DNA from: Candidatus Iainarchaeum sp.
GTDB lineage: Archaea; Iainarchaeota; Iainarchaeia; Iainarchaeales; UBA10219
Reading direction: 5' to 3'
Assembly: GCA_018304425.1 (NCBI GenBank)
Contig: JAGVWE010000003.1
Location: 128,001 to 192,000 of the forward strand
Length of the DNA: 64,000 nt
Shown: piece after piece, positions 24,593 through 46,527 of the stretch
How the letters are laid out: the number at the start of each line of letters is the position of its first letter
Numbering within the stretch: the stretch's first letter is position 1
Program-made: the position numbers and the translations under genes
Notes under the pieces: generated by a model
What the model was told of the DNA's origin: nothing
The model's input: only the letters and a program-made list of their open reading frames with translations
Database searches by the model: none

Positions 24593-24666
24593 GGGCCCGT
24601 AGCTCAGCCTGGCAGAGCATTGGTCTTATACACCAAGCGCCGGCGGTTCAAATCCGCCCGGGCCCA
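24593..24666 (+). tRNA. tRNA-Ile (anticodon UAU)
   Basis: Cloverleaf: GGGCCCG/CGGGCCC acceptor, GCTC/GAGC D-stem, TTGGT-CTTATAC-ACCAA anticodon arm, GGCGG-TTCAAAT-CCGCC T-arm; no encoded CCA. Confidence 0.9.
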
Positions 24667-42376: not shown

Positions 42377-42565
42377 CTGGAAGCCCAGGCCAACGAAGAG
42401 AGGCCTACCGCCCCATTGAACCCTGCGGGTGAAATGGGGCACGTCCGCAAGTGCCAGTTGACCAGGGCAGTGTCCTGCAAGGCAGGACACGTTTCCCCGA
42501 AGACACAGTCTTCGGGGCCTCGTCCCCAAGGGGACAAGGTCGCAGGCCTTTTGTAAAAAGGCCTT
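42377..42565 (+). repeat. Tandem hairpin cluster / putative structured RNA upstream of tRNA-Val
   Basis: Five or more stems incl. 42410-42440, 42470-42490, 42495-42517, 42518-42539, 42544-42564; TTTAAAAG box at 42352. Confidence 0.6.
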
Positions 42566-43183: not shown

Positions 43184-43240
43184 GGCTGCCTGGGCCAGGC
43201 GAACCGTTTTAAGACCTTGGATGCAAGTGGAGTGGGAAAC

Positions 43241-43912
43241 ATGCTCGAATCCCTGCCAAGCCTTTCATTCGCCTTCCTGGCCCTCGCGTTGGGCTTCAAG
43301 CACAGCTATGACGCTGACCACATCGTGGCCGTTGCCAACCTCCTCCGAAAGTCGAAGTCGTTGCGGGAAGCCCTGGGCATGAGCGTCAGTTGGAGCCTGG
43401 GCCACATGCTCACGGCTTCCGGCATCACCGCGTTCCTCTACGTGTTCCGGGAATCCGTGCTCCGCTTGCTGCTCGAAAAATTCGAGTTGCTGGTGGCCGT
43501 GATGCTGATTGGCCTGGGCCTCTACAGCCTCTACGACTTGACGCGGTTCCACCGGCACGAGCACGAAGGCGAAAGCGGAAAGCACGCGCACCTCCACGTG
43601 CACGCGAAGAACGAGCAAGGCAGGCACCTGCACCAGCACATGTTCGGCATCGGCATCGTGCACGGCCTCGCCAGCAACGACGAACTCCTCATCCTCTTGA
43701 CGGCCTCGCTGGGCCTGAACTCCCTGGCCGGGATGCTGGCCGGAACCGCCTTGTTCAGCGTTGGAGTGGTTGCGGGCATGATGGTGTTTGCCGTGGTTTT
43801 CACGTACCCCTTGTTCCGCGCGCACTCCGACAAGCTCTACGCCGCGTTCACGGTGTTGGTAGCCCTGGCCAGCATAGCCTATGGCTGGTTGATGCTGCGC
43901 GGGCTGGCCTGA
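43241..43912 (+). CDS. NiCoT/UreH/RcnA-like nickel-cobalt transporter
   Basis: LGFKHSYDADH, GH, His-rich loop HRHEHE...HAHLHVH, GIVHGLAS. Confidence 0.85.
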   Translation: MLESLPSLSFAFLALALGFKHSYDADHIVAVANLLRKSKSLREALGMSVSWSLGHMLTASGITAFLYVFRESVLRLLLEKFELLVAVMLIGLGLYSLYDLTRFHRHEHEGESGKHAHLHVHAKNEQGRHLHQHMFGIGIVHGLASNDELLILLTASLGLNSLAGMLAGTALFSVGVVAGMMVFAVVFTYPLFRAHSDKLYAAFTVLVALASIAYGWLMLRGLA

Positions 43913-43955
43913 ACCGGGCGGGCAAAACCTTAATAACCCGTTAAGCCAATAATCT

Positions 43956-44044
43956 GCTGAGGGGCGACCCGGAAAAGGCGGCGCTAATTTCAAGCTCCCC
44001 AAGATTGAAATGCCGCGCAATAAGAAGGGCACGCGCTCCTTAGC
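43956..44044 (+). ncRNA. Novel structured RNA motif, copy 1 (5' leader of the beta-propeller gene)
   Basis: Long stem-loop with internal loops; homologous to 45543-45628 with covarying pairs; CCTTAATAA box at 43928-43936. Confidence 0.7.
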
Positions 44045-44066
44045 CACTTATTTGAGGCGCTCGGAC

Positions 44067-45140
44067 ATGAAGCTACCCCTTGCCACAGGCGTTTTGCTGC
44101 TTGTTTTGCTGCTGGGATGCACGAGCCCGCCAAAAACGGGGCCGGAGCGCGCGGTCTATGTCGCCAACGAAAAAGGCGCCAGTCTCTCGGTCGTTGATGC
44201 GGCAACCAACAAAGTCGTGGAAACGATTGCATTGGGCGGCCACCCGCACAACGTCAACGTGAGCGCCGACGGGAAATACTTCTTCGCCACCAACCACTCC
44301 GAAGACGAGGAAGAAGAAGCGGGGAAAAAGGAGGAAACAGAGCACGACGACCACCATGCCGGTGGCGAAAGCTTTGTCCGCATCCTGGACGCGCGAACGT
44401 TGCAACTCGTGAACTCGATTGCGCTGGAACAATTCGGCGCCCACGTCGTGCCAAGCCACGATGGCAGGAGCCTGTTCGCCTCTGACCAGGGCGCGGACTT
44501 CCTGGAAGTCCTTGACCTGGAGGAAGGCACCAGGCTGTCGCGCATCAAGACCGGGCATGGGCCGCACGGCTTCGTGGTGAGCCCGAACGACCAATTCGTT
44601 TACACGCCCAACGTGGCAAGCAACGACATAACGGTCATCGACGTTGCGGCGCAAGAAGCGATTGGGACCATTGTCCCGGAATACGGCGGACACGCCTGCG
44701 AAAAACCCGTGGCCATGGGCATTGACACAGGAGGCCGTTATGGTGTTGTTACTTGCGGCGGCAGCTTCGACGCCTACAAGATAGATTTCGCGGAAAAGAA
44801 AGCCGTAGGCCGCGTGGAGTTCAGGAAAGGGGAATACCCAGGCCCCATCCAAACACCCTTACACCCCGACGGAAAAACCCTCTACATCCCGGACATGCGG
44901 AACGGCGTGGTGCACAAGGTTGACTTCGAGTCCTTCAAGCTGTTGAAAGATATCCCTGTAGGAAAGGGCGCGCACGGCATCGCCTTCAGCGCCGACGGGA
45001 AAACGGCTTACATCACCCTGACCTGGGAGAACGCCCTGGCCGTCCTTGACCTGGCTACGGAGCAGGTCAGGGCCCGCATCCCGGTGGGCGAGGAACCCAA
45101 CGGCGTGGCCGTGCGGGGCGGAAAGAACCAGGGATGGTAG
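44067..45140 (+). CDS. YVTN/YncE-type beta-propeller lipoprotein with acidic His-rich insert
   Basis: LLGC leader; YVAN...PHN, GPHG, GAHGI, PNGV blade repeats; EDEEEE...HDDHH insert. Confidence 0.85.
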   Translation: MKLPLATGVLLLVLLLGCTSPPKTGPERAVYVANEKGASLSVVDAATNKVVETIALGGHPHNVNVSADGKYFFATNHSEDEEEEAGKKEETEHDDHHAGGESFVRILDARTLQLVNSIALEQFGAHVVPSHDGRSLFASDQGADFLEVLDLEEGTRLSRIKTGHGPHGFVVSPNDQFVYTPNVASNDITVIDVAAQEAIGTIVPEYGGHACEKPVAMGIDTGGRYGVVTCGGSFDAYKIDFAEKKAVGRVEFRKGEYPGPIQTPLHPDGKTLYIPDMRNGVVHKVDFESFKLLKDIPVGKGAHGIAFSADGKTAYITLTWENALAVLDLATEQVRARIPVGEEPNGVAVRGGKNQGW

Positions 45141-45142
45141 CG

Positions 45143-45470
45143 TCAAATGGATTGGACCGGGGGCGTTGTGCCGAAGAAGAAGGCAGCCGCTCCAACCAAA
45201 GCAAACAGGACTCCCATTCCCAGGAACACCCAGAAAAACAGGCTGCCGCCTCCAAGGAACGCCTCGACTGGTTGGGCTTCATATGGATTCCCTGGGTTGA
45301 CTTTTACCGCCAACGTTGAACCCGGTGAGTGTTCGTCCGCATAGCGTTGGGCGGCACCGTAATCGCCAGAACCGGGGGACGTGTAAGCGTTCGTGTATTC
45401 TTTTCCCTGATAAGTGAATTTGTATTTCAGGATGCTGCCCCACGCGATGCCGGTGTCCTTGACCCAGCCA
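45143..45470 (-). pseudogene. N-terminally truncated DUF3592-like paralogue
   Basis: Aligns to the C-terminal two-thirds of 45713-46216 (LKY.FT..GK.YTNA..SP.S.DYGAAQRY.DEH) but lacks the first TM and a clear start. Confidence 0.6.
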
Positions 45471-45542
45471 AGCCAGCCCAAGCCCCAGAAAGCCTTAATA
45501 AGCAGTTAGCGCCTATAATGTGATTGAAAGTGGTTGGAAAAA

Positions 45543-45628
45543 TAAGGAGCCACCTGGAAAAAGCGGTCCTCTTTCAAGCTCCCCAAGATTGAATCAAACC
45601 GCATAATAAGCAAGGCAACGGCTCCTTA
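45543..45628 (+). ncRNA. Novel structured RNA motif, copy 2 (free-standing)
   Basis: TAAGGAGCC...GGCTCCTTA closing stem; identical core TTTCAAGCTCCCCAAGATTGAA; CCTTAATAA box at 45493-45501. Confidence 0.7.
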
Positions 45629-45712
45629 CAATCCATTCGCCAGCTAGTTCTTCGAATACGGTTTCAAGGCAGCCAGCAGGCGACAAAAAAGGGGTTAACC
45701 TCCCTGCAGGGG

Positions 45713-46216
45713 TTAAAGGTTTTGGCCGGCAGCCGGGGCCACGCCCAGGAATAATACCGCTGCGCCAATCAAGGCAAACCCGATGCCCATGCCGAGGAAA
45801 ATCATCATAGCCAACCCCATTCCGCCCAGCAAGGCATCCGCGGGATGGGAGTCATAGGGGTCGGCCGGGTTGACTTTCACTTGAATCGGGGTTCCCGAAA
45901 GGTGCTCGTCCGTGTACCGCTGCGCGGCCCCATAGTCGCTGGAACTCGGTGAATTGAAAGCATTCGTGTAGTCTTTGCCCTCGAACGTGAAAGAATACTT
46001 GAGCGTGTTGCCCCAGGTGACGCTCGAGCCACTGCGCCCCGTGGAACGGTCCTCGAACACGCTGGACTCCACGACCCTGGCATCTATGGAAACCCAGGGC
46101 GTGGTCTGCTCCTTGTACAAGAAGTAACCGCCTAGGCCGGCAAAAACGAGGCCCACCACCAAGAAAAGGGCTCCAACCAGTTTCGGGTTATTGGTTTGAT
46201 ACGAATACAATTGCAT
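45713..46216 (-). CDS. DUF3592-like membrane protein
   Basis: TM - W...ARVVESSV...YSF...VNPADP - TM architecture. Confidence 0.75.
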   Translation of the reverse strand: MQLYSYQTNNPKLVGALFLVVGLVFAGLGGYFLYKEQTTPWVSIDARVVESSVFEDRSTGRSGSSVTWGNTLKYSFTFEGKDYTNAFNSPSSSDYGAAQRYTDEHLSGTPIQVKVNPADPYDSHPADALLGGMGLAMMIFLGMGIGFALIGAAVLFLGVAPAAGQNL

Positions 46217-46273
46217 GCAAGGCAATAGAAGACCATGGACCTATTTAAAGGTTCCTCCAATGGCAGCTGAGAG

Positions 46274-46527
46274 TGCACGGGGCAGACCTTTTTACAACCA
46301 TCAAAAGCTTCGCTTTTGGTGGCGTCGTCCACGAAGTGGACAACGAAGCCCTGGGAAAACGTCCCCTGCGCGGCAGGGGGCTGGCTTGGCCTATCGGCCT
46401 CGCTATTTATGGCCCACCATCAAAACCTTCGGTTTTGGTGGCCTCGTCCACGAAGTGGACAAGGTCTTTAGATGGGCCGACGTATAGCGCGCAGCCGCCG
46501 CTATCGTGCGGCTAATGCACGGGGCAG
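46274..46527. mobile_element. Miniature palindromic element bracketed by a duplicated tRNA-Leu 3' end
   Basis: TGCACGGGGCAG at 46274-46285 and 46516-46527; internal 49-bp direct repeats 46297-46345 and 46416-46464. Confidence 0.55.

What the first reader, a model, noticed from the sequence alone, without database searches (positions are those of the whole stretch)
43956..45628. Twice-present structured RNA with compensatory base changes beside Ni/Co-handling genes: candidate new riboswitch or sRNA
Seen: copy 1 (43956-44044) and copy 2 (45543-45628) share an identical core TTTCAAGCTCCCCAAGATTGAA and fold into the same nested rod. Closing stem: TGAGGGGCG/CGCTCCTTA vs TAAGGAGCC/GGCTCCTTA. Short stem: CCC/GGG vs CCT/AGG. 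Purine-rich internal loop GGAAAA / AATAAG. Next stem: GCGGC/GCCGC vs GCGGT/ACCGC. Apical stem TTCAA/TTGAA with the 11-nt loop GCTCCCCAAGA. Three pairs swap compensatorily (G-C to C-G, C-G to T-A twice) while the loops stay conserved, which indicates selection on RNA structure. Each copy follows its own CCTTAATAA TATA-like box. Copy 1 lies between a NiCoT-like transporter and the SD of a His-rich beta-propeller; copy 2 has no same-strand ORF behind it. From memory it does not match cobalamin, NiCo, Mn, Moco, TPP, FMN, SAM or T-box consensus. Inference: a metal- or ligand-sensing leader, or a trans-acting sRNA whose CUCCCC loop pairs with G-rich ribosome-binding sites. Few riboswitch classes are known in archaea.
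Basis: partly seen in the sequence, partly recalled or inferred. Interest (0 to 1): 0.85.

Follow-up and report, generated by a model that had tools for sequence, protein, structure and literature searches.

The report
Paired small structured RNA genes, archaeal
Two neighbouring copies of a roughly 90-base hairpin-shaped RNA gene in a small groundwater archaeon are real and look functional, but they behave like free-standing small RNA genes of unknown role rather than like a metal-sensing riboswitch.

Summary
Two + strand copies (43958-44042 and 45543-45628) share an identical 22-nt core and fold into the same nested rod. A third homologue turned up on a metagenome contig, L038 (78.5 bits). 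Across the three sequences 98.6% of pair cells are standard pairs, and 5 of 24 pairs changed on both sides. The slid-partner controls show 0 such pairs. The 22-nt apical hairpin never varies, while the rest is only 66-75% identical.

Nothing matches Rfam. No further homologue was found in the 214 other genomes of the phylum, or in phage and plasmid records.

All three copies keep a BRE/TATA-like box upstream that resembles the boxes before this genome's tRNA genes. Only 1 of 3 has a same-strand gene behind it. In L038 the RNA is followed by TTTTT and then a convergent gene.

Best reading: a lineage-restricted pair of independently transcribed small non-coding RNA genes whose invariant C-rich hairpin is the working part. 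The riboswitch reading is weak. Three sequences are too few for firm covariation statistics, and no RNA data exist. Interest is moderate to low.

The parts
43924..43938 (+). BRE/TATA-like promoter box of copy 1 (AAAACCTTAATAAC). It lies about 21 nt before the first stem base.
   Evidence: Conserved before all three homologues. Resembles the boxes before this genome's tRNA genes, for example GCCTTAAATAAGCC before tRNA-Leu(tag). Promoter function is inferred, not shown.
43947..43954 (+). Second A/T-rich box (CCAATAAT) between the TATA-like box and the stem. Possibly a promoter-proximal element.
   Evidence: Conserved as CCTATAAT in copy 2 and CACATAAAT in L038. The role is inferred from recalled knowledge of archaeal promoters.
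43958..44042 (+). RNA copy 1: a nested rod with a 9-bp closing stem, a 3-bp stem, the purine-rich internal loop GGAAAAG / GCAATAAGAA, a 5-bp upper stem and the apical hairpin.
   Evidence: (108.6 bits).
43988..44009 (+). Invariant 22-nt apical hairpin core of copy 1 (stem TTCAA/TTGAA, C-rich loop GCTCCCCAAGA).
   Evidence: Identical in all three homologues, while columns outside it are 66-75% identical.
44048..44053 (+). T-rich stretch TTATTT after copy 1. A weak candidate for an archaeal terminator, lying 14 nt before the beta-propeller start codon at 44067.
   Evidence: Read from the sequence. L038 has TTTTT at the matching place. Function is inferred.
45489..45502 (+). BRE/TATA-like promoter box of copy 2 (AAAGCCTTAATAAG).
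   Evidence: repeat D14.
45512..45519 (+). Second A/T-rich box of copy 2 (CCTATAAT). A 19-nt insertion follows it that copy 1 lacks.
45543..45628 (+). RNA copy 2, with the same nested rod as copy 1.
   Evidence: (108.3 bits).
45572..45593 (+). Invariant 22-nt apical hairpin core of copy 2.
43217..43912 (+). Context: a 231-aa NicO-like membrane protein gene that ends 46 nt before copy 1. The same gene end precedes the RNA in L038.
   Evidence: Pfam NicO at 27.5 bits against a 27.7 cut-off, and DsbD_2 at 21.5 bits. NCBIfam nickel-transporter models score only about 20 bits. Synteny with L038 is seen.
44067..45140 (+). Context: a YncE/YVTN-type beta-propeller gene with an acidic, His-containing insert. 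It lies downstream of copy 1 only.
   Evidence: It is absent behind the RNA in L038.

Best explanation
These are two paralogous genes for a small structured non-coding RNA. Copy 1 is about 90 nt. Copy 2 is probably about 110 nt or more, because it has a 5' extension. The family is confined to this archaeal lineage. Each gene appears to be transcribed on its own from a BRE/TATA-type promoter, and the RNA acts in trans.

The RNA folds into a rod. Its stems need only stay paired. Its purine-rich internal loop (GGAAAA / AAUAAG), and above all its 22-nt apical hairpin with the C-rich loop GCUCCCCAAGA, are fixed in sequence and are the working parts.

The mechanism I commit to is this: the exposed CUCCCC loop resembles the anti-Shine-Dalgarno end of this organism's 16S rRNA (CCUCCUU). 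It pairs with G-rich sites such as GGGGAG at or near ribosome-binding sites of a few mRNAs and blocks or alters their translation. The two copies would then be sibling sRNAs sharing one seed.

What is shown: the repeat, the common fold, the compensatory changes, the invariant core, the conserved promoter-like box, and the lack of a downstream gene in 2 of 3 cases.

What is inferred: transcription, action in trans, and the target type.

I put about 0.55 on 'independently transcribed functional sRNA' and about 0.2 on the specific anti-SD-like pairing mechanism. Sequence-specific protein binding to the hairpin is the next most likely mode.
For: 1. Real and rare. There are 2 copies in the 1.48-Mb genome and no others. 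A third homologue sits on metagenome contig L038 at 78.5 bits, E 4.4e-21.

2. Common fold. All three fold to the same rod independently and in RNAalifold. On the 3-sequence alignment 98.6% of 70 pair cells are standard pairs. 5 of 24 pairs changed on both sides. Controls with the partner slid by 1-3 columns give 0 such pairs and 29-49% pairing.

3. Strand. Three G.U pairs (copy 1 columns 4-88 and 8-84, L038 columns 27-59) would be A.C mismatches on the minus strand. The minus strand of copy 1 folds no better than shuffles, z +0.58.

4. Sequence constraint. The 22-nt core is 22/22 identical in all three pairwise comparisons. Outside it, identity is 45/65, 47/63 and 43/65.

5. Own transcription unit. 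The motif RAAA-CC(W)TTAATAA is conserved before all three. It resembles the boxes before this genome's tRNA genes. In L038 the RNA is followed directly by TTTTT and a convergent gene. Copy 2 has no upstream same-strand gene and no downstream same-strand ORF.

6. Not a hybrid of integration sites. Each copy's two stem strands match each other where the copies differ.

7. Anti-SD likeness. The 16S 3' end reads GGAUCACCUCCUU, and the loop holds CUCCCC. Sites such as AAGGGGAGCUU lie 5-12 nt before some start codons.

8. A documented mode in bacteria. C-rich sRNA loops that pair with G-rich target sites are described for RoxS (PMC5419742, passages read).
Against: - Only three sequences exist, two of them paralogues in one genome. 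In the shuffle control, 16 of 500 shuffles reach the observed covariation score, so the statistics are suggestive and not decisive.
- The L038 fold is no more stable than shuffles (z -0.54; 59 of 200 shuffles fold as well).
- Transcription is unshown.
- No extended target exists. No 15-nt antisense site with 2 or fewer mismatches was found apart from the loci's own opposite strand. The best duplexes are 10-11 nt, about what chance gives in 3 Mb.
- GGGGAGC is near candidate starts in 13 of 191 occurrences. The figures for GGGGAGA, GGGGAGG and GGGGAGT are 9/184, 11/221 and 9/114, so there is no enrichment.
- GGAGG occurs in only 35 of 621 start regions, so SD-led initiation is a minority mode here.
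- Both strands of the apical stem are invariant. That fits protein recognition or a tertiary role at least as well as a base-pairing seed.
- Copy 1 has only a weak T-stretch (TTATTT) and sits 24 nt before the beta-propeller start codon. There it may also serve as a leader.
- The terminator of copy 2 is unclear.
Confidence: 0.55

Rival explanations
1. A protein-binding RNA. The invariant hairpin and the purine-rich internal loop would be recognition sites for a protein, so that the RNA works as a scaffold, decoy or RNP component and not by base pairing.
For: - All 7 apical pairs and the loop are invariant, while the other stems covary. That pattern fits sequence-specific recognition of a folded hairpin.
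- No convincing antisense target was found.
- The internal loop GGAAAA/AAUAAG is invariant in all three.
Against: - No partner protein can be named.
- No K-turn is present, so L7Ae, which the genome does encode, is an unlikely partner.
- No gene co-occurs with the RNA beyond the NicO-like gene in two related organisms.
Confidence: 0.2
2. A cis-acting leader or riboswitch. Copy 1 would sense a metal ion or other ligand and control the beta-propeller gene downstream, or the NicO-like gene upstream. Copy 2 would be an orphaned duplicate.
For: - The architecture is riboswitch-like, with conserved internal loops and covarying stems.
- Copy 1 ends 24 nt before the beta-propeller start codon with only a weak T-stretch between them, so the gene is probably transcribed through it.
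- The neighbours have faint metal links: NicO at 27.5 bits, and a weak AztD zinc-chaperone match at 40.6 bits against a cut-off of 400.
- The RNA follows the NicO-like gene in both organisms.
Against: - Only 1 of 3 homologues has a same-strand gene behind it. L038 has TTTTT and then a convergent regulator gene. Copy 2 faces a convergent DUF3592 gene.
- No alternative pairing that would sequester a start site or form a terminator is conserved (inspection).
- More distant NicO-like genes in 3 genomes have no such RNA beside them.
- No Rfam riboswitch matches, even at E up to 10.
- The NicO-RNA synteny comes from two related organisms and may reflect shared ancestry alone.
Confidence: 0.1
3. No RNA function. 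The two copies would be a duplicated intergenic segment (promoter plus palindrome) that works at the DNA level, for example as an operator for a dimeric regulator, or would be a decaying repeat or miniature mobile element.
For: - TTCAA-N11-TTGAA is an inverted repeat of the kind that regulators bind.
- The similarity extends into the promoter region.
- There are only two copies, 1.6 kb apart, and the region lies between two tRNA genes.
- The covariation statistics rest on three sequences.
Against: - The outer stems change by compensation while the loops stay fixed. That is the reverse of what a MITE with conserved terminal repeats shows, and a DNA operator has no need for it.
- The G.U pairs are strand-specific.
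- No further copies exist in the genome, in 214 other genomes of the phylum, or in phage or plasmid records.
- No transposase or integrase was noted beside it.
- GC content across the region is unremarkable.
Confidence: 0.1
4. A 3'-end element of the NicO-like mRNA, such as a stabilising hairpin or a processed 3'-UTR fragment, and not a separate gene.
For: In both organisms the RNA starts 45-60 nt after the NicO-like stop codon on the same strand.
Against: - Copy 2 has no upstream same-strand gene; the gene upstream of it is divergent.
- A BRE/TATA-like box sits between the stop codon and the RNA in all cases.
Confidence: 0.05

Closest known systems
Bacterial sRNAs with C-rich loops, RoxS/RsaE type
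   Same: A small, independently transcribed RNA in which exposed C-rich stretches are the conserved working parts. RoxS has C-rich regions that pair with G-rich sequences in its targets (PMC5419742, passages read). Here the invariant loop holds CUCCCC.
   Different: This is a different domain of life with no sequence or Rfam relationship. It has one C-rich loop where RoxS has several, and the stem around the loop is invariant as well. No targets are shown. G-rich ribosome-binding sites are uncommon in this genome.
Sibling sRNA pairs such as OmrA/OmrB of E. coli
   Same: Two neighbouring paralogous sRNA genes share an identical functional segment and differ elsewhere. OmrA and its sibling OmrB are named in the abstract listed (PMC13473878, search listing only); the rest is recalled.
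   Different: The resemblance is in gene arrangement alone. No homology, chaperone or target is known here.
NiCo riboswitch (czcD motif) and other metal-sensing riboswitches
   Same: A structured RNA next to a gene of a nickel/cobalt-transporter-like family.
   Different: No Rfam family matches, even at E up to 10. This RNA is an unbranched rod, whereas I recall the NiCo class as a four-way junction. 2 of 3 homologues have no gene to control. The known class is bacterial.
Archaeal H/ACA guide sRNAs
   Same: A single hairpin of similar size with a 9-bp lower stem and a large internal loop. ACA follows the lower stem in copy 2 and L038.
   Different: - No K-turn or K-loop above the internal loop.
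- Copy 1 lacks ACA.
- About 25 nt separate the upper stem from ACA, where I recall about 14-16 nt.
- The rRNAs contain no site that fits the pocket.
- Nop10 was not found in the 92.55%-complete genome, while the control found it in 4 of 4 archaeal control genomes.

Membership tests
Any Rfam 15 family (including NiCo, cobalamin, Mn, Moco, TPP, FMN, SAM, T-box, fluoride, archaeal sRNA families) | Match to the family covariance model at or above its gathering score | tested here: not met
   The whole window at gathering thresholds gives only 3 tRNAs. Region 43850-45750 at E up to 10 gives 3 weak hits, none near its cut-off. The one that overlaps copy 2 is on the minus strand, scores 18.8 against 55.8 bits, and aligns only the outer stem.
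Riboswitch / cis-regulatory leader | Lies in the 5' untranslated region of a same-strand gene in most representatives | tested here: not met
   True for 1 of 3 (copy 1). Copy 2 and L038 are followed by convergent genes.
Riboswitch / cis-regulatory leader | Conserved unpaired core flanked by covarying stems | tested here: inconclusive
   The pattern is present, with 5 pairs changed on both sides and invariant loops. It comes from only 3 sequences, and 16 of 500 shuffles do as well.
Riboswitch / cis-regulatory leader | Expression platform: a conserved alternative pairing that hides a start site or forms a terminator | tested here: not met
   By inspection, no alternative pairing is shared by the three. 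The AAUAAG/CUUAUU complementarity exists only after copy 1.
Riboswitch / cis-regulatory leader | Specific ligand binding that changes the structure | not testable with these tools
   Needs in-line probing or calorimetry.
Trans-acting base-pairing sRNA | Own promoter and terminator, giving a discrete small transcript | tested here: inconclusive
   A promoter-like box is conserved in 3 of 3 and resembles the boxes before tRNA genes. The T-stretch is clear in L038, weak after copy 1 and unclear after copy 2. No transcript data were available.
Trans-acting base-pairing sRNA | Conserved accessible seed | tested here: met
   The apical loop is invariant in 3 of 3 and unpaired in all predicted folds.
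Trans-acting base-pairing sRNA | Complementary target sites beyond chance | tested here: not met
   No 15-nt site with 2 or fewer mismatches. The best duplexes are 10-11 nt. GGGGAGC is not enriched near starts: 13/191 against 9/184, 11/221 and 9/114 for the other GGGGAGN words. Gene starts were crude ORF-based guesses.
Archaeal H/ACA guide sRNA | K-turn or K-loop in the upper stem, and an ANA box about 14-16 nt from the pocket (features recalled) | tested here: not met
   No bulge followed by tandem G.A pairs lies above the upper stem. ACA is present in 2 of 3 and sits about 25 nt from the upper stem.
Archaeal H/ACA guide sRNA | rRNA or tRNA target that fits both pocket strands, and the Cbf5-Nop10 machinery | tested here: not met
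   The 16S has neither CTTTTC nor CTTATT. The 23S region has one CTTTTCC and no CTTATT. Nop10 was not found in the genome at 92.55% completeness.
C/D box sRNA | Box C (RUGAUGA) near the 5' end and box D (CUGA) near the 3' end (recalled) | tested here: not met
   None of the three sequences contains TGATGA. CTGA occurs only at the 5' edge of copy 1 (read).
tRNA, including intron-containing tRNA | Cloverleaf detected by tRNA finders | tested here: not met
   ARAGORN with and without introns, and the Rfam tRNA model, report nothing at either locus. The apical hairpin resembles the tRNA-Gly(CCC) anticodon arm at 12 of 14 positions. I take that as chance.
MITE or other small mobile repeat | Many dispersed copies with conserved terminal inverted repeats | tested here: not met
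   There are 2 copies, 1.6 kb apart, and no others. The outer stems vary while the centre is fixed. No phage or plasmid match.
Integration-site duplication (attL/attR) | An identical core with arms of different origin on either side | tested here: not met
   Within each copy the 5' and 3' arms are complementary to each other where the copies differ (columns 11-81, 15-74, 27-59). Hybrid sites would not show this.

The most novel reading that the evidence does not exclude
The rod would be a new class of archaeal ligand- or metal-responsive riboregulator. Its invariant internal loop and apical hairpin would form a binding pocket. The RNA is encoded beside a NicO-like transporter gene, and it would act both as the leader of the beta-propeller gene (copy 1) and in trans (copy 2 and the L038 orthologue). 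That would make it a free-standing riboswitch-like sRNA in a DPANN-type archaeon.
Probability: 0.08. Interest if true: 0.75.

Novelty: new member of a known kind. Interest (0 to 1): 0.35.

Why it matters
Small-genome, uncultivated archaea of this kind have almost no described regulatory RNAs. My two literature searches listed nothing on structured sRNAs in such lineages.

This locus offers a concrete and cheap test case. The RNA family has its own promoter, a common fold, compensatory changes and a 22-nt segment that has stayed identical while the rest diverged by 25-34%.

If it is transcribed, it would be a first handle on post-transcriptional control in this lineage. If it bound a ligand, it would add to the very short list of archaeal riboswitch-like RNAs.

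As it stands it is a well-supported but functionally anonymous candidate with a very narrow distribution. That narrowness limits both its general importance and the power of comparative tests.

Tried and rejected
- **Rfam.** Nothing at gathering thresholds or at E up to 10.

- **BLAST of copy 1 against 60 relatives.** Nothing better than E 0.03.

- **Model R1 (2 sequences) on 150 other genomes of the order.** Three weak hits of 17.6-23.4 bits. The best lies inside a 231-aa ORF, so I rejected it as noise.

- **Model R2 (3 sequences) on 150 genomes drawn from the class and 150 from the phylum.** Only the same noise hit. The two samples overlap heavily with the order sample, and Infernal's stricter filters were in force.

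- **22-nt core at up to 3 mismatches in all 214 other genomes of the phylum.** Five hits against 0 for the reversed control. None has the rod; the best scores 13.9 bits. One is the antisense of a tRNA-Arg anticodon arm.

- **Gapped loop pattern in public collections.** Genome contigs gave 1 chance hit, L037. Metagenome contigs gave L038, which is real, and L039, which is chance. Viral contigs gave 1 hit, the same contig as L039, and 0 for the exact core. L037 and L039 have no model match.

- **Synteny route.** NicO-like homologues were found in 4 of 195 other order genomes. No RNA lies beside them.

- **Sequencing runs.** 17 DNA holders were listed from groundwater and soil metagenomes, and no RNA holder. 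This says nothing about expression.

- **Laying contigs of 4 runs.** They show the same strain. The single difference within the 43956-44047 alignment span is at 43956, just outside the stem, so no informative variants emerged.

- **H/ACA, C/D, tRNA, MITE and att-site readings.** All rejected; see the membership tests.

- **SRP RNA and RNase P RNA.** Both were found elsewhere in the genome, so this RNA is neither.

- **Target prediction by duplex scan and start-site proximity.** Only chance-level matches. My first H/ACA target pattern was far too loose, giving 257 hits and cut output. Only its rRNA word counts were used.

- **Phage and plasmid records.** No match.

- **Supplementary files.** Not consulted.
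Full report
**What is there**

The window holds two + strand copies of a roughly 90-nt element, at 43958-44042 and 45543-45628.
- They are 77% identical over the structured part (67 of 87 columns).
- They share an identical 22-nt core, TTTCAAGCTCCCCAAGATTGAA. These are the only 2 matches in the window at up to 3 mismatches, and none of 100 shuffles gave a match.
- Copy 1 folds at -35.4 kcal/mol (z -2.07). Copy 2 folds at -25.1 kcal/mol (z -3.27).
- Every detail in the finding checks out.
- The whole 1.48-Mb genome (7 contigs, 92.55% complete) has just these two copies, by BLAST and by covariance model.
- Contigs from other sequencing runs cover each copy with its own flanks, so this is not an assembly artefact.
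- The organism is an archaeon. Archaeal SSU and LSU models match, and the 16S ends GGAUCACCUCCUU.
- It belongs to a phylum of about 215 held genomes of 0.3-1.5 Mb. It is the only held member of its family.

**Relatives**

Nothing in Rfam 15 matches, either at gathering thresholds or at E up to 10.

A two-sequence model (R1) found only noise in 150 other genomes of the order. The best hit lies inside a 231-aa ORF.

A gapped pattern built from the apical loop and the 3' internal loop gave these results:
- One chance hit in the species-representative genome collection.
- Two hits in JGI metagenome contigs.
- One of the two, L038 (2153 nt), matches the model end to end at 78.5 bits, E 4.4e-21. The other hit, and the genome hit, do not match at all.

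A three-sequence model (R2) found nothing more in samples of 150 genomes each from the class and the phylum.

The 22-nt core at up to 3 mismatches occurs in 5 of 214 other phylum genomes. None of these has the rod, and one is the antisense of a tRNA-Arg anticodon arm.

Phage and plasmid records hold nothing similar.

The family is real but very narrow. My metagenome pattern required exact loop words, so diverged members could have been missed.

**Evidence for structure and strand**

On the three-sequence alignment:
- 98.6% of 70 pair cells are standard pairs.
- 5 of 24 pairs changed on both sides (columns 3-89, 8-84, 11-81, 15-74, 27-59).
- Sliding the 3' partners by 1-3 columns gives 0 such pairs and 29-49% pairing.
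- 16 of 500 column shuffles reach the observed score.

RNAalifold recovers the same structure. L038 folds to it on its own, although not more stably than shuffles (z -0.54).

Three G.U pairs would be A.C on the other strand. One C.A mismatch in L038 points the other way. The minus strand of copy 1 folds no better than shuffles. The + strand is therefore the likely RNA.

With three sequences, two of them paralogues, this is good qualitative evidence but not a statistical proof.

**The invariant core**

Outside the core the three sequences are 66-75% identical (45/65, 47/63, 43/65). Inside it they are 22/22 identical in every comparison.

Under a naive uniform-rate model the chance of 22 consecutive invariant columns is about 7e-6.

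Both strands of the apical stem are frozen, along with the loop. This points to recognition of the sequence itself, not merely to a need to pair.

The internal-loop words GGAAAA and AAUAAG are also invariant.

**Transcription signals and context**

All three homologues are preceded by RAAA-CC(W)TTAATAA and by a second A/T box 8-10 nt further on.
- The first box resembles the boxes 30-45 nt before this genome's tRNA genes, for example GCCTTAAATAAGCC before tRNA-Leu(tag).
- In copy 1 and L038 it lies 21-25 nt before the stem. From what I recall of archaeal promoters, that would start the transcript at the base of the stem.
- Copy 2 has a 19-nt insertion, which implies a short 5' extension.

In L038 the RNA follows the stop codon of the homologous NicO-like gene, as copy 1 does. 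It is followed at once by TTTTT and then, 73 nt on, by the end of a convergent Lrp/AsnC-like gene.

Copy 2 lies between two minus-strand DUF3592 genes.

Only copy 1 precedes a same-strand gene, a YncE/YVTN beta-propeller that starts at 44067. A weak TTATTT stretch lies between them.

The 'Ni/Co' label rests on thin evidence. The Pfam NicO match is 27.5 bits against a cut-off of 27.7, and the NCBIfam nickel-transporter matches are about 20 bits.

More distant NicO-like genes occur in 4 of 195 other order genomes, and none has this RNA beside it.

**What it is not**

- **SRP RNA or RNase P RNA.** Both were found elsewhere in the genome.
- **tRNA.** ARAGORN, with or without introns, reports nothing at either locus.
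- **C/D box sRNA.** It has no box C.
- **H/ACA guide.** No K-turn is present. ACA occurs in only 2 of 3 and lies too far from the upper stem. No fitting rRNA site exists. Nop10 was not found.
- **MITE.** There are two copies only, and the ends vary while the centre is fixed.
- **Integration-site pair.** Within each copy the two arms are complementary to each other where the copies differ.

**How it most likely works**

The anatomy fits a free-standing small RNA: its own promoter, a rod whose stems are merely maintained, an invariant exposed C-rich hairpin, and no downstream gene in 2 of 3 cases.

The loop CUCCCC resembles the anti-Shine-Dalgarno end of the 16S rRNA. It would pair with GGGGAG, and a handful of genes carry AAGGGGAGCUU-like words 5-12 nt before candidate start codons. 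C-rich loops that pair with G-rich target sites are a documented mode in bacteria (RoxS; PMC5419742, passages read).

The support for this specific mechanism is thin:
- No extended target exists.
- GGGGAGC lies near candidate starts in 13 of 191 occurrences. The figures for the other GGGGAGN words are 9/184, 11/221 and 9/114.
- GGAGG occurs in only 35 of 621 start regions.
- The neighbouring genes show no notable complementarity.

I give about 0.55 to 'independently transcribed, functional structured sRNA family' and about 0.2 to the anti-SD-like pairing mechanism within it. Protein binding to the frozen hairpin is the next most likely mode, also at about 0.2.

A cis-acting riboswitch or leader gets about 0.1, a non-RNA or decaying repeat about 0.1, and a 3'-end element of the NicO-like mRNA about 0.05.

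**Limits**

- No RNA run holds this sequence, so expression is untested.
- The laid contigs showed only the same strain.
- The gene starts used are crude ORF-based guesses.
- The literature searches were read as listings. Passages were read in one paper only.
- The features of H/ACA and C/D RNAs, the NiCo riboswitch architecture and the archaeal promoter elements are recalled, not retrieved.

**Verdict**

The structured-RNA inference is well supported for so small a family.

The riboswitch interpretation is not supported by context. The trans-acting sRNA interpretation is the best fit but is unproven.

This is a new, lineage-restricted member of a known kind, the archaeal small non-coding RNAs. 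It is of moderate to low general interest unless transcription data or a larger family reveal a ligand or a regulon.

Noticed in passing
window 46297-46343 and 46416-46462; genome-wide, e.g. G000 C1:289570-289626 and C1:292525-292581: A 47-nt element occurs twice, at 94% identity, between the DUF3592 gene and tRNA-Leu(tag). It holds two hairpins and shows one compensatory G/C swap. Its reverse complement sits directly before tRNA-Val(tac) and tRNA-Gly(gcc) elsewhere in the genome. It appears to belong to a family of structured elements that flank tRNA genes.
   Followed up: partly
G000 genome-wide; in the window just before tRNA-Val(cac), about 42549-42563: The palindromic hairpin CC-TTTTGTAAAAA-GG, often framed by CGCA...GCGA, occurs 17 times in the genome. 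Eight occurrences lie within 60 nt of a tRNA gene called without introns. One more precedes an intron-containing tRNA-Pro at C7:53910. It reads TTTTGTAAAAA upstream of tRNA genes and TTTTTACAAAA downstream of them. It may be a processing or termination signal. I have no explanation for it.
   Followed up: partly
G000 genome-wide (upstream of tRNA-Leu(cag), Leu(gag), Ser(cga), Pro(cgg)): A second conserved leader, GGGACGACGTATGCGGTG-CNNCTGACGC-TCGTCAG, directly precedes several tRNA genes.
   Followed up: no
G000 genome-wide: ARAGORN finds 39 tRNA genes without introns. With introns allowed it finds 18 more candidates, including Gly(tcc), Asp, Tyr, Thr(tgt), Leu(caa), Ser(gga), Gln(ttg) and Pro(tgg) with 48-98-nt introns. 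Several calls with introns longer than 1 kb look spurious. The window also holds a tRNA-Ile with anticodon TAT at 24593-24666.
   Followed up: no
window 44010-44066: An ATG at 44010, inside the 3' half of RNA copy 1, is in frame with the beta-propeller ORF and would add 19 residues. Copy 2 and L038 have no ATG there. The ATG at 44067 has GAGG 9 nt upstream and opens a lipoprotein-like signal peptide, so 44067 is the likelier start.
   Followed up: partly
window 43988-44009 compared with G000 C4:145249-145320: The apical hairpin of the RNA (AGCUCCCCAAGAUU) resembles the anticodon arm of this genome's tRNA-Gly(CCC) (AGCUUCCCAAGCUU) at 12 of 14 positions. This was noticed after the fact and is probably chance.
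   Followed up: no
window 45143-45481 (-) and 45713-46225 (-): Two paralogous DUF3592 membrane-protein genes flank RNA copy 2. The TATA-like box of copy 2 is nearly palindromic (CCTTAATAAG / CTTATTAAGG) and could also serve the divergent DUF3592 gene.
   Followed up: no
G000 start regions: In 621 crude start regions, Shine-Dalgarno-like words are uncommon (GGAGG in 35). A/T-rich words dominate positions -22 to -3, which suggests mostly leaderless or short-leader mRNAs.
   Followed up: no
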